This document shows, one piece after another, positions 8,787 through 62,811 of a stretch of 64,000 nt of DNA. Position 1 is the stretch's first letter; every line of letters begins with the position of its first letter. A program made the translations under genes and the position numbers. The notes beneath the pieces are model-generated. The model saw only the letters and a program-made list of their open reading frames with translations. It did no database searches and had not been told where the DNA came from. Origin of the DNA: Octopus sinensis (lineage: Eukaryota); the NCBI RefSeq assembly GCF_006345805.1, contig NC_042999.1, positions 33,356,001 to 33,420,000 on the forward strand. The letters are read 5' to 3'.

Positions 8787-9525
8787 GATTCTGAACACAT
8801 CATAAATAAACTACAAAACCTTACGTAGCCGAAGACAAACGACAAACTGCTACAATCCGGCCAAGCACATGGAATGTTTATAAATCATATATCCGGTAAA
8901 TGGCGGGCTTTTTTACGAACTGCATGTCGGGTAATGAAAAGTATTTCGGAATAAGTTTAACAATAAGGATAATCTCTTATAAGGGATCTTACAAGAAATT
9001 ATCGGGTTATGCTAGCGTGGGAACGTGAAAACCTCATAAAAGAAAAGAATTCGAAAAATTAATTTTTTCTTTTGAACCAATTAATTATATCTATATTGTT
9101 ATAGAGGGATTATTACACATAAATGCCTCACACTAGGAGGGACAAAGTCATTACTACCAAAATTATACTAATTCATACCCAAATGCAGTTTTCAAAGCAA
9201 GACATTTAAAAAAATGAATTAGTTCTGTATCAATATAGATATAATTATTTGTTCAAAAAAAAAAAGTATTTTCGAATTCTTTTCTTTTATGAGGTTTTCA
9301 CGCTAGCTACCCGATAATTTCTTGTTAAGATCCCTTATTAAGAATTATCCTTAATTGTTAACTTATTCCGAATACTTTTCATTACCCGACTGCAGTTCGT
9401 AAAAAAGCCCGCCATTTACCGGATATATGATTTATAAACATTCCATGTGCTTGGCCGGAGTGAGCAGTTGTCTGTTTGTCTTCGCTACGTAAGGTTGGTA
9501 GTTTATTTATGATGTGTTCAGAATC

Positions 9526-9584
9526 AGTTCTGCTGACGATCATTAGACGTAAAGTTGAATGTGAAATCACGGTGATACAGAACT
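9526..9584 (+). ncRNA. Type-I hammerhead ribozyme motif
   Basis: agttctg-CTGACGA-tcatt..aatgt-GAAA-tcac-g-gtga-TA-cagaact: 7-bp stem I, catt/aatg stem II, near-palindromic stem III, AUA site. Confidence 0.8.
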
Positions 9585-9706
9585 AAATTCATTTTTTTAA
9601 ATGTCTTGCTTTGAAAAACTGCATTTGGGTATGATTAGTATAATTTTGGTAGTAATGACTTTGTCCCTCCTAGTGTGAGGCATTTATGTGTAATAATGCC
9701 CTCTAT

Positions 9707-16660: not shown

Positions 16661-17092
16661 GAGACAAAAATTACTTGGAAACGGATGCGTGGCGTTCGAT
16701 CATATATTAATATAAATACTATATAAATATGTTGTGTCGACGCCCCCCAGACGATGAAGTAGGCTAGCCCAATAGATAGATATAGAGGAGGAAGTCTAGA
16801 CGTCATCAGAATAGAGCAGAGCTGAATAGAGGTCATCCGAACGTGCAACATAACAGTGGCGACGAGGATAAGATGCTCACCACTGTGTAGTATTGAGATA
16901 TAACATTGGCGACGAGGTTTCGAATAGTAACGAAATGGAAGAGTTACTGAAAGCAGTTTTAAAACAACAAGAGTGACGGTGAGAGTGAAGTAGAATTGAG
17001 ACAGGCATCTGAACGTGCGACATAACAAAATATATTCATATATACATGCATATACGTGCATACCTACATATATAAGTATATATACATGCATA

Positions 17093-17872
17093 ATGGGTAC
17101 ACGACATAAAAAAAAAACGTTGAACCTAATGAGAAACGTAAATATAAATACAAAAACATAGAAAACGAACTTTTTTCGAACAACGAAAAAATAAGAAAAA
17201 CAGAGAAACGAGACGATCAACATAAAGAACATTCCCCTTCATCAGTTGTCCCTGTTTCAACTACTCCGCGTTTTCGAAGGCAAGGAAAATACGCGCCTTT
17301 GTTGAAACAGTCCTTCCCGCAAAGCAAATTAAATAAAATTGGTGATTTTTTGCTGAGGGTGAAAGTGGTAACAAGAACAGGACAGTGAGGACAAGACAGT
17401 AGAAACAAACGGAGTGGGCTGTTAAGCCAAGACGATAGAAAAGTATTATGAACGCTAGGAATAAGAGCTTATGAAAAGAGACAGGTAAAAGCTGTCTTTA
17501 TGAAGGATACGGGCAGAAAGCTAGATTTCCTTTCGTCACATGTCAGTGACGAGAGAGTCAAGGAGGAAGAGTGAGAGAGAGGTAACGGTGAAGAGGAGAG
17601 GAGAAGAATAGGGAAGGGTGGCAGAGAAAACCACAAATGAAGAAGAACAAGAGAGGGAGAGGGATAGACAGAGAAAAGATAGTAGAGATAGTTGAAGAAC
17701 AAGAGAAGGAGAGAGATAGACAGAGAAGCGATAGTAGAGATAGAAGAGTGCGCATCGTAATTATTAAGATAAAACTTACTTGGAAAAGGAGGCGTGACGT
17801 TGGTCATATAATAATATATATAATATATAAAAATATGCATATATACTTACATATATGTACATAACTACATAT

Positions 17873-17928
<56 letters not shown>

Positions 17929-18052
17929 ATGCTTATATGGGTACAGGACATCAAAATATCGTTGAAGACAATGAAAAGCGAAAACATATAAACAATAACA
18001 GGAAACGAGCTCTTTTCGAACGACGAAAAAAACAGAGAAACGGGAAATCAAC
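17093..18052 (-). mobile_element. About 844-bp non-coding Penelope-like unit with partial tandem repeat
   Basis: atgggtaca-gacat...tttcgaac-acgaaaaaa..acagagaaacg at 17093 and 17937. Purine-rich body, microsatellite flanks, carries a permuted hammerhead-like motif. Confidence 0.65.
17234..17310 (-). ncRNA. Candidate non-circularly permuted hammerhead ribozyme
   Basis: CUGUUUCAAC AAAGG CGC GUA UUUUCC UUG CCUUC GAAA ACGCG GAGUA GUUGAAACAG GGACAA CUGAUGA AGGGG; see findings. Confidence 0.55.
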
Positions 18053-18839: not shown

Positions 18840-20000
<1,161 letters not shown>

Positions 20001-39693: not shown

Positions 39694-40886
39694 CTAGCAG
39701 TATCGCCCGGCGTTGCTCGGGTTTGTAAGGGAAATAACTCTATAAGCACTTTTAGAGAGTTATAGCCAAAGAAATAGGAAAAAAATGCATTAAAAATGGA
39801 AAAAAAATTAAGGTAAATTTCTTTTTAAATCGTTGACACATCGTAGATATTTTTAGAGAGTTACTTCCCTTATATAATAGCGAAAAAAATGCATTAAAAT
39901 GAAAAAATAAAATATTTTTTGGTTTTTCTTAACCCTTTCGTTACTATATTTCTGACCAAAATACACCCCTTATGTGTTTCAATTAATTTCTAACGTAATC
40001 ATAAATTTAGTCTGGTTTCATTAAACAACTATAACTTTTTTATTTATGAATATATTAATCTGATTTTTGGAAGATAATTTAGTGAAATGTTCTCAACCAA
40101 TTCTATACTATAATTTTTGTCACAAAGTGACTCTAATTGCAGGTAGATACAGGTAAATTCAACAATATATAAAATTATTAAAATTTTGTTCAAACATCGC
40201 TATAGAAAATGGGTTATTAGCTAATATTCAATTGGGTATACAACAAAATTTTACGATAGAATTTGTTATTCTGGGTAACTTTCTGATACCCATAATAATA
40301 TTTATGGCAAAATAGGCCTTAATTTAATTTAAGGTTGTGGGAAATAACAAACTATCCTTTCTTTCGCTTTGTTTACGTTTAGCGTAATAATTTCAAATAG
40401 GCTCATTCGAAAAAGTAAAAAGAAATAGTTTAAGGCTTTATACTCTTCTGGGAAAGTCTGTGGCTTGGTGCAGTTTCTTCAGAAAAATCACCGAAAGAAA
40501 CAGTTTTTAAATTTTCACTCCATTCAGGTACCAATTCGTTTTCTTAATCGCTGTCGGATTCACTGTTTTCACTTTAATAGCTGCAAACTTGCAAAGACAA
40601 AGGAGGAGAAGGGTGATAGCGTCAGTGAAACAGTCGCTCCCTTTGTGTGTGCGTTTGCGTGTGGTGTATCCCACATTAAGAAAAACATTTGACATATACA
40701 CCAGAATGTGAGTTTTCTCTAAATTTTGCTTAATTGGGGTTGAAATTTTAAACACCGGACCTGGCATGACCCGATGCATTCTACTCTTAAAAATCCTAGG
40801 TAAATTGTAATTGAAGAAATCCTATATTGTAGATTTCTATAAATTACAAAGGGAGGCAGATAAAATCTGCCTTTTATAATAAGAGA
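39694..40886 (-). mobile_element. Non-autonomous Helitron with internal insert
   Basis: Minus strand starts A|TC and ends with hairpin cccgagcaacgccggg plus CTAG|T. The terminal part is shared with 61167-61563. Confidence 0.7.
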
Positions 40887-61744: not shown

Positions 61745-61759
61745 ATATATATATTATAT

Positions 61760-62603
61760 GTAGAAAAATACAAACTGGGACAAGAACGTAAAACATTTAG
61801 AAGACGATACAAAATACATGTTCGAAGCCTTCAATCTTCAGTCAAGAACCGGATCATCCTAGCAATTTCGGCTGATTAATCTTGAGATCGCTCCGATCCG
61901 GCCAGCCCTAAGGAAAAACTAAGCTATGATTATTAGATTTCTTGGAAGTAGATCGAATGTATACGAAACAGGGACAGAAAAACGGACGATGCCACACGAA
62001 TATAAAATGCAAAAAACAATAATGGTAAAAACAGGACAAAAACAGCGGGTGTCTTACGACTAATAAACAGTACAATAAGTTTAGCTGACGTATTTTGAAA
62101 AAATGCCTTTATCGGCAGACGAAGACAACAGATGTTCTCACGGCAGTGGTCGTATGCCAAAAAGCTGATTATGACCAGCGGCCACGTGACAGAAGAGAGA
62201 GAAAAGAAAGGGGGCAAAGGAAACAAAGAGAGAGAAAAAGAGGGACGAAGGCAACAAGGGGGAGAAGAGAGAGAAAGAAGGAATTAAAGAGGGGAGAAGA
62301 AAGAGTGCGTGCGAAGGAGGGCTAGTGTGTGCTAGGTGAGAAAGACAGAGAATTGTGAGAGAGTGGGGGGAAGAGGAGACCAAAGAATCGGAGGCAAGAA
62401 AAGTGAAAAGGGGGAGAAGTAGAGAGAGAGAGAAGGGGACAGATAAAAGTAGAGTGCAAAGTGTGAAAGGCAGAGAAATGTAGGAGAGAGAGACAGTGTG
62501 TAGAGTCGTACCAAATTTACAGGAATATGTACATACGTAAGTGCCAACGAGGGTACGGACGCCGCTATATATATTATATGTAGAAAAATACAAACTGGGA
62601 CAA
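61760..62603 (-). mobile_element. 820-bp non-coding Penelope-like unit in (AT)n with terminal direct repeat
   Basis: gtagaaaaatacaaactgggacaa at 61760-61783 and 62580-62603; purine-rich body. Confidence 0.75.
61826..61901 (-). ncRNA. Candidate non-circularly permuted hammerhead ribozyme
   Basis: CCGGAUC GG AGCG AUC UCAAGA UUAA UCAGCC GAAA UUGCU AGGAU GAUCCGG U UCUUGA CUGAAGA UUGA AGGCU; see findings. Confidence 0.65.
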
Positions 62604-62811
62604 TATATATATATATATATTTATTGTATTGCAAGATTTTTTATGTGAAATCGTGTGTTGAAACAGATATTGTTGTATTTAGGAATGGTTGTATTTATTG
62701 GCTAAACGGGCAAAATCACCATTCTTACATACAACAATACAGACACACACACATATATATATGAATACACATATAAATATACTAGCACATACAGTCACAC
62801 ACGCACCCCTC

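What the first reader, a model, noticed from the sequence alone, without database searches (positions are those of the whole stretch)
17234..17310. Second, sequence-divergent motif with the same permuted hammerhead architecture
Seen: outer helix CUGUUUCAAC/GUUGAAACAG (10 bp), purine-rich internal loop, stem III CGCGU/ACGCG, triplet GUA, stem I UUUUCC/GGACAA (5 of 6) directly before CUGAUGA, and stem II AGGGG against CCUUC before GAAA. Every helix differs in sequence from the 61.9-kb motif, yet order and spacing are the same. Both motifs lie in 820-844-bp partially tandem, purine-skewed units in microsatellites. This covariation between two families is the main argument against chance. This copy has one extra A after GAAA and one stem I mismatch, so it may be decayed.
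Basis: partly seen in the sequence, partly recalled or inferred. Interest (0 to 1): 0.75.

Follow-up and report, generated by a model that had tools for sequence, protein, structure and literature searches.

The report
Split-core scrambled hammerhead in mobile repeat
This is a worn copy of a motif carried by thousands of jumping repeats in this animal genome: it holds all the parts of a hammerhead ribozyme in a scrambled order, with one core helix completed by a separate upstream strand, and its intact relatives likely cut their own RNA, which would supply the ribozyme that Naiad retrotransposons were reported to lack.

Summary
The motif lies in a non-coding, (TA)n-inserted, partly tandem repeat with thousands of copies. 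Its block order (cleavage site, GAAA, CUGANGA) is that of the published type-SGC hammerhead (PMC10085705), so the scrambled order itself is known. In six repeat families the strand before GAAA pairs with a strand upstream of the outer helix (30 of 30 Watson-Crick pairs, always G10.1-C11.1). The strand after CUGANGA pairs further upstream, with a hairpin between. The backbone is thus broken between A9 and 10.1 and closed by a predicted four-way junction, which I found in no paper. One family is the 3' end of published octopus Naiad elements. By eye, coral Naiads share the form and nematode Naiads carry type CSG. Insertion 5' ends pile up just 3' of the predicted cut (37 versus 6 upstream), an indirect sign of cleavage. 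Cleavage is untested; this copy is probably dead. The scan reported the same motif earlier in this and other genomes.

The parts
17028..18052 (-). Family A repeat insertion: a unit of about 844 bases plus a short 5' repeat of its own 3' end (about 17918-18052), with microsatellite at the joint; non-coding
   Evidence: BLAST extents of 29 other copies, family alignment with sharp 3' end and fading 5' end, 3,686 first-look candidates, only low-complexity reading frames, no tRNA
17356..17360 (-). Clamp strand IIa' (ACCCU), pairs with the bases after CUGAUGA
   Evidence: same helix with other letters in five more families
17317..17355 (-). Hairpin H (7-bp stem in the family majority; one mismatch at 17354 in this copy), sits between IIa' and IIb with no spare base
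   Evidence: 202 of 208 cells paired in 30 copies
17312..17316 (-). Upstream stem II strand IIb (GAAGG); G at 17316 is position 10.1
   Evidence: 141 of 150 cells paired with 17276-17280
17301..17310 (-). Outer helix, 5' strand; equivalent to the stem I/II interaction helix of type SGC
   Evidence: equivalence inferred from PMC10085705 text
17296..17300 (-). Joint loop, 5' side (two changes from the family majority)
17290..17295 (-). Stem III 5' strand and GUA triplet; predicted cut between 17290 and 17289
   Evidence: site by analogy with hammerheads; 5' ends of insertions pile up from here
17284..17289 (-). Stem I strand after the cut (G>U lesion at 17287 in this copy)
17281..17283 (-). Three-base linker joining stem I to stem II
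   Evidence: sequence; type SGC has a linker of typically three bases
17276..17280 (-). Stem II strand IIb' (CCUUC); C at 17276 is position 11.1
17267..17275 (-). GAAA core (one extra A in this copy) and stem III 3' strand
17252..17266 (-). Joint loop 3' side and outer helix 3' strand
17246..17251 (-). Stem I partner strand (GGACAA)
17239..17245 (-). CUGAUGA core
   Evidence: position 7 varies U/A/C among 30 copies (20/9/1)
17235..17238 (-). Clamp strand IIa (AGGG), directly after A9
61746..62622 (-). Family B repeat with the second motif of the same design (core at about 61835-61890)

Best explanation
The stretch is a decayed copy of a hammerhead-ribozyme motif whose parts lie in a scrambled order and whose stem II is completed by a separate upstream strand; intact family members likely fold on themselves and cut their own RNA after the GUA, which likely sets the 5' end of the RNA that a Naiad-type reverse transcriptase copies into TA microsatellites. 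Order, 5' to 3': clamp strand IIa', hairpin H, stem II strand IIb, outer helix, joint, stem III, UH, stem I, short linker, IIb', GAAA, stem III, joint, outer helix, stem I', CUGANGA, clamp strand IIa. Shown: the letters, the pairings in six family majorities, the repeat anatomy, the same motif at the 3' end of published octopus Naiads, and the pile-up of insertion 5' ends. Inferred: that stems I and IIb form as two pseudoknot helices between the apical loop and the basal loop; that A9 and G10.1, no longer neighbours in the chain, are held together by a four-way junction (core, IIb, H, IIa); that the joint bends the rod back; that cleavage occurs; that a Naiad protein moves family A. The design is a circular permutation of type SGC or CSG opened between A9 and 10.1. 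This copy has lesions in stem I, the GAAA run and hairpin H and is probably inactive.
For: Core bases are the majority in all six families, with variation at the permissive positions N7 (U/A/C) and H17 (A/C). Family-majority pairs: stem I 36 of 36, stem III 30 of 30, IIb 30 of 30 Watson-Crick (one bulged base assumed in family G; start set by hand in G and N), IIa 26 of 30; every IIb column but the first shows 3-4 pair types, the first is G-C six times, as expected for 10.1-11.1 (that consensus is recalled). Relatives of family B replace its two U.U mismatches in IIa with standard pairs (L141, L157, by eye). Families B, G, H and N have tandem GA pairs and a three-base bulge at the joint, the kink-turn pattern (consensus recalled). 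Family N (424 pattern hits, 4 in control) is the 3' end of Naiad_Obim and Naiad_Ovul, and two loci carry the end of that reading frame upstream (matched by eye). Three coral Naiads and one further cnidarian entry fit the whole design with other letters (by eye). 5' ends: family A 20 in 0..+25 from the cut against 1 in -26..-1 (47 kept of 71 anchors); family B 17 against 5 (49 kept of 77); pooled, a freely fitted enriched block starts at -1. Type-SGC RNAs with the same ring-to-ring pairing cleave in vitro.
Against: No cleavage data. No hammerhead that I found in print has block C interrupted, and Eckert et al. assume it cannot be. Nested folding predicts the rod in B, G and H but other folds for majorities A, C and N; pseudoknots were not modelled. 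Families A and C have a symmetric 5x5 joint loop without the kink-turn pattern, so the fold-back is not explained there. In family A a second GAAGG overlaps G8-A9 and could trap IIb' in an inactive register. 20 of 100 family-A-type sites have a wrong number of As in GAAA; a tree of 30 copies does not resolve whether these spread from broken masters. The pile-up is broad (about 30 bases); the 0..+25 window was chosen, and the +/-3 window alone gives 3 of 61 (p 0.22) in A and 5 of 66 (p 0.024) in B. The six families are not independent (A with C, B with H are relatives). No sequence link between family A and an autonomous Naiad was found, and Pfam did not recognise the two short frame remnants.
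Confidence: 0.7

Rival explanations
1. Same parts and same cut, but in a dimer: the rod from outer helix to stem III stays straight, and the apical loop of one copy pairs with the basal loop of another (tandem unit or second RNA).
For: Families A and C have a symmetric joint loop that need not bend; stem I' follows the outer helix with 0-2 spare bases; units occur in tandem; small Penelope hammerheads cleave as dimers (title of Lunse et al. 2017 seen).
Against: Four of six families have a kink-turn pattern and coral Naiads a one-sided bulge at the joint, which only a fold-back needs; monomeric type-SGC constructs cleave.
Confidence: 0.13
2. The structure is real but no longer or never catalytic: it is a binding site for the retroelement protein or a roadblock at which reverse transcription stalls.
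For: The 5' end pile-up lies within the rod and is broad; many copies with a damaged GAAA run exist; only 5 of 71 unselected family A anchors pass a strict test for core and stem I (many are 5'-truncated).
Against: All catalytic positions and G10.1-C11.1 are kept while helices change letters across families and phyla; the left edge of the pile-up falls on the predicted cut, not on the 3' foot of the rod.
Confidence: 0.12
3. A plain type-SGC hammerhead, with stem II made by the bases right after CUGAUGA.
For: In family A a one-base insertion after A9 allows G-C, G.U, G.U, G-C.
Against: Fails in the other families (0-2 of 5 pairs with no insertion) and is weaker than the upstream partner in all six; the bases after CUGANGA have their own covarying partner.
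Confidence: 0.04
4. Chance arrangement in a repeat.
For: A strict descriptor on 664 kb was hardly above shuffles.
Against: Six families and published Naiads keep the design with different letters.
Confidence: 0.01

Closest known systems
Type-SGC hammerhead ribozymes (HRIMA-1 and variants), Eckert et al. 2023, PMC10085705 (seen: main text parts 1-6 of 8 with figure legends; supplement searched for five words; figures not seen)
   Same: Block order S, G, C; short linker from stem I to stem II; a helix that ties the other strands of stems I and II; pseudoknotted core; all conserved core bases.
   Different: [quoted passage not shown]
Type-CSG hammerheads (same paper; two metagenomic sequences)
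   Same: Same cyclic order of blocks; moving the segment 'interaction strand, I', CUGANGA' from the 5' to the 3' end converts CSG into the form here.
   Different: Block C is continuous. By eye, eight nematode Naiad 3' ends in the Craig et al. supplement read as CSG.
Naiad Penelope-like elements, Craig et al. 2021, PMC8557442 (seen: passages of the main text; supplement parts 1 and 24 of 59 and search passages)
   Same: (TA)n targets, partial tandem and inverted 5' ends, 5' truncation; family N is the 3' end of Naiad_Obim/Ovul; the paper marks some Naiads 'HHR_core' or 'HHR_half_core'.
   Different: The paper reports no canonical hammerhead in Naiads; family A is short, non-coding and not shown to be homologous to a Naiad.
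Type I hammerheads of Penelope elements and animal non-LTR retrozymes (preprint 10.64898/2026.07.22.740005, passages seen; PMC4209133, listing only)
   Same: Hammerhead near the 3' end of a Penelope-type or non-autonomous tandem unit.
   Different: Those are circular permutations with a three-way junction; units here are about 830 bases and mostly partial tandems.

Membership tests
Hammerhead ribozyme | CUGANGA core directly after stem I | tested here: met
   Majority in six families; intact in this copy
Hammerhead ribozyme | GAAA core with A15.1-U16.1 opening stem III, then H17 | tested here: met
   Family majorities, stem III 30 of 30 pairs; this copy has an extra A
Hammerhead ribozyme | Stem II closing on G12 with a purine-pyrimidine pair 10.1-11.1 | tested here: met
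   G-C in six of six families, but through the upstream strand
Hammerhead ribozyme | Self-cleavage 3' of H17 | not testable with these tools
   Indirect only: insertion 5' ends; the RNA runs were contigs and show no ends
Hammerhead types I, II, III | Blocks in a circular permutation of C, G, S; three-way junction | tested here: not met
   Order is S, G, C; no Rfam family at gathering score in seven loci from six families, no hammerhead among the 150 listed of 189 window matches
Type-SGC hammerhead | Block order S, G, C | tested here: met
Type-SGC hammerhead | Short linker between stem I and stem II strands | tested here: met
   3 bases in family A, about 1-6 in the others
Type-SGC hammerhead | Helix binding the other sides of stems I and II | tested here: met
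   Outer helix, 5-9 bp, 0-2 bases from stem I' and just after IIb
Type-SGC hammerhead | Block C uninterrupted (stem II strand directly after A9, at most 1-2 inserted bases) | tested here: not met
   12, 19 and fewer or equal of 30 pairs in registers 0, 1, 2 against 30 of 30 for the upstream strand
Naiad Penelope-like element (non-autonomous) | Microsatellite target, 5' truncation, partial tandem or inverted 5' end | tested here: met
Naiad Penelope-like element (non-autonomous) | Sequence relation to an element with N-terminal GIY-YIG and RT | tested here: inconclusive
   Shown by eye for family N; no match of family A to a family N locus among hits of 150 bases or more; family A has no coding frame
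Non-LTR retrozyme | Type I hammerhead in every tandem unit | tested here: not met
   Not type I; the window copy has one motif and a partial repeat that lacks it
Non-LTR retrozyme | Circular RNA intermediate | not testable with these tools
   Only contigs of runs guessed to be RNA were available

The most novel reading that the evidence does not exclude
Naiad retrotransposons and their short non-coding parasites across animal phyla use non-circularly permuted hammerheads: plain type CSG in nematodes, and in cnidarians and cephalopods a fourth opening of the same ring, cut inside the catalytic block and closed by a four-way junction. The ribozyme is active in cells and sets the 5' end of the transposition template, and the forms arose from one another by the tandem duplication that these elements undergo.
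Probability: 0.6. Interest if true: 0.85.

Novelty: new variant of a known kind. Interest (0 to 1): 0.72.

Why it matters
It breaks the stated assumption that a hammerhead's CUGANGA block cannot be interrupted, gives non-circular hammerheads their first home in animal genomes that I could find (on the order of ten thousand copies here, extrapolated from 33 sites in 5.1 Mb), and explains why descriptor searches found only 'half cores' in Naiads. It makes two open questions testable with one in-vitro assay and a genome count: what hammerheads do for Penelope-like elements (the 5' end pile-up suggests template trimming), and how permuted RNAs arise (CSG and split forms in one retroelement clade).

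Tried and rejected
Rfam scans: only microsatellite-driven microRNA noise in the window, nothing at gathering score in seven family loci. Strict six-order descriptor on 664 kb: too few intact copies to tell. Sequencing runs: no RNA holder listed; four runs guessed to be RNA were contigs only, so they show no starts, ends or strand. A tree of 30 family A copies was star-like and could not say whether extra-A or missing-A copies form lineages. Pfam on two short frame remnants upstream of family N: no family. Five pattern hits fetched as possible new families (L151, L153, L166, L167, L169) did not fit by eye. The 'inverted flank' label also fires on TA repeats and was not used as a count. Nested folding cannot test the pseudoknot helices. 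No 3D modelling of RNA was possible. The published Naiad sequences were read by eye in passages only; bivalve, arthropod, hemichordate and fish Naiads remain unexamined.

Full report
Observation. The stretch is one copy of a high-copy repeat in a 2.7-Gb animal genome (family A, 3,686 first-look candidates); the 61.9-kb motif belongs to another (family B, 1,986). The majority of the 30 best family A matches restores UUGUCC and GAAAC. These 30 were chosen by likeness to this copy; in genome order 79 of the first 100 pattern hits have GAAAC, 15 lack one A, 5 have an extra A and 1 reads GAAGC. Rfam does not see the motif.

The repeat. In ribozyme sense family A has a sharp 3' end running into (TA)n, a 5' end that fades, and a short repeat of its own 3' end in front. 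The window copy spans about 18052-17028 with an offset of 844 bases. It has no coding frame beyond low-complexity ones and no tRNA. Several copies have an inverted piece at the 5' end (for example L284, L285, L290, by eye). This is the anatomy that Craig et al. describe for Penelope-like elements, with (TA)n as the usual Naiad target.

Block order. Eckert et al. 2023 divide the hammerhead into blocks S (cleavage site), G (GAAA) and C (CUGANGA), and show that type SGC and CSG RNAs from environmental sequence cleave. The order here is S, G, C, with their short linker between stems I and II. So the scrambled order is known.

Stem II. A genome-wide pattern without pairing rules gave 51,473 matches against 7,751 for the reversed pattern and showed further families; I collected 20 copies each of four more. 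In all six majorities the five bases before GAAA pair with a strand just 5' of the outer helix: 30 of 30 Watson-Crick pairs, G10.1-C11.1 each time, three or four pair types in each other column. One bulged base is assumed in family G, and the start was set by hand in G and N; in the others it was the best of 20 positions. The bases after CUGANGA pair instead with a strand further upstream (26 of 30), and a hairpin of 4-7 bp lies between that strand and the stem II strand with no spare base. Stem I has 36 of 36 and stem III 30 of 30 pairs. The outer helix (5-9 bp) joins the far ends of stems I and II and so plays the part of the interaction helix of type SGC. The families are not independent: A and C are relatives, as are B and H.

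Model. The chain is opened between A9 and 10.1 and the ends are clamped by two extra helices, which with stem II and the core would make a four-way junction (inferred). The nested part is a dumbbell; stems I and II form between its two loops, the same ring-to-ring pairing as in type SGC. The rod must bend back. Families B, G, H and N have the kink-turn pattern at the joint (consensus recalled); A and C have a conserved 5x5 loop that matches the bulged-G pattern (recalled) and does not explain a bend, which leaves room for a dimer. Nested folding finds the rod in B, G, H and in this copy but other folds for majorities A, C and N.

Link to Naiads. The published Naiad_Obim and Naiad_Ovul sequences end in this motif about 80 bases before their 3' end. 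A pattern for it has 424 hits here against 4 in the control; these are family N, and two of 12 longer loci carry the end of the Naiad frame upstream (matched by eye; Pfam silent). In search passages of the same supplement, three Acropora Naiads and one more cnidarian entry fit the entire split design with other letters, and eight nematode passages read as uninterrupted type CSG. I saw passages only, out of 54 listed Naiads; the end of Naiad_Omin, seen whole, lacks the motif, and passages for other phyla gave nothing that I could read. SGC, CSG, GCS and the split form are openings of one ring, so tandem duplication could convert one into another (inference). Family A itself is not shown to descend from a Naiad, and earlier scan notes place a like motif in HERO LINEs (not tested).

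Sign of cleavage. Family A: 71 anchors, 10 running beyond -200, 14 dropped because the flank continues the element, 47 kept; 20 start in 0..+25, 1 in -26..-1, 4 in +26..+51. Family B: 77 anchors, 11 beyond, 17 dropped, 49 kept; 17, 5 and 7. For the 89 pooled ends up to +55 the best freely fitted block is -1..+31, with the left edge between -3 and 0 in the eight best fits. This fits reverse transcriptase running off a template cut at that site, with a few bases lost. The window width was chosen, the peak is broad, and stalling in the structure is a rival. RNA data could not help: no holder is on record as RNA, and the runs laid were contigs.

This copy. Eight substitutions and one insertion separate it from the majority over the motif and its immediate flanks, three of them in stem I, the GAAA run and hairpin H. 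It is probably inactive.

Print. Six searches listed no paper on a split-core hammerhead or on non-circular hammerheads in animals; the library lacks most subscription journals, and I did not see the figures of Eckert et al., whose supplement has no 'four-way' or 'kink'. The 2026 retrozyme preprint uses type I models only (passages). The scan itself has reported this motif before, in this genome and others; those are AI notes and not support.

Verdict. A real feature; it works like a hammerhead but fails membership of types I-III and, on the uninterrupted block C, of type SGC. New variant of a known kind; interest 0.72.

Noticed in passing
Supplement of PMC8557442, Naiad consensus file: Eight nematode Naiad 3' ends read by eye as uninterrupted type-CSG hammerheads with a long interaction helix; the type is published from two metagenomic sequences only.
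   Followed up: partly
window 9525-9585 (+): Type I hammerhead-like motif with an 8-bp stem I, short stem III and a weak stem II; probably decayed.
   Followed up: no
window 19405-19500 (-): Type I hammerhead-like motif with a minimal stem III, palindromic loop and long stem II insert. Type I order had 8 hits in 664 kb against 0-1 in shuffles.
   Followed up: no
window 16735-17020: A different repeat (1,333 first-look candidates) next to the 3' end of the family A copy; on the plus strand it looks like the end of an LTR with a duplicated primer-binding-site-like motif. One locus on C3 near 81.04 Mb holds a 56-base piece of it as a long tandem array.
   Followed up: no
window 16662-16730: Short piece resembling the 5' part of the family A unit (17767-17834), beside a TAGA microsatellite.
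   Followed up: no
L251:2430-2600 and L252: A seventh family with an 8-bp stem I and kink-turn pattern seems to fit the design; only two decayed copies seen.
   Followed up: partly
genome: 15 of 100 family-A-type sites lack one A of GAAA, more than a three-base run would be expected to lose; a broken master may have kept moving.
   Followed up: partly
window about 40480-40560 (-) and L084: Another repeat gives an SGC-order hit in the strict descriptor but does not resemble the motif; probably chance.
   Followed up: no
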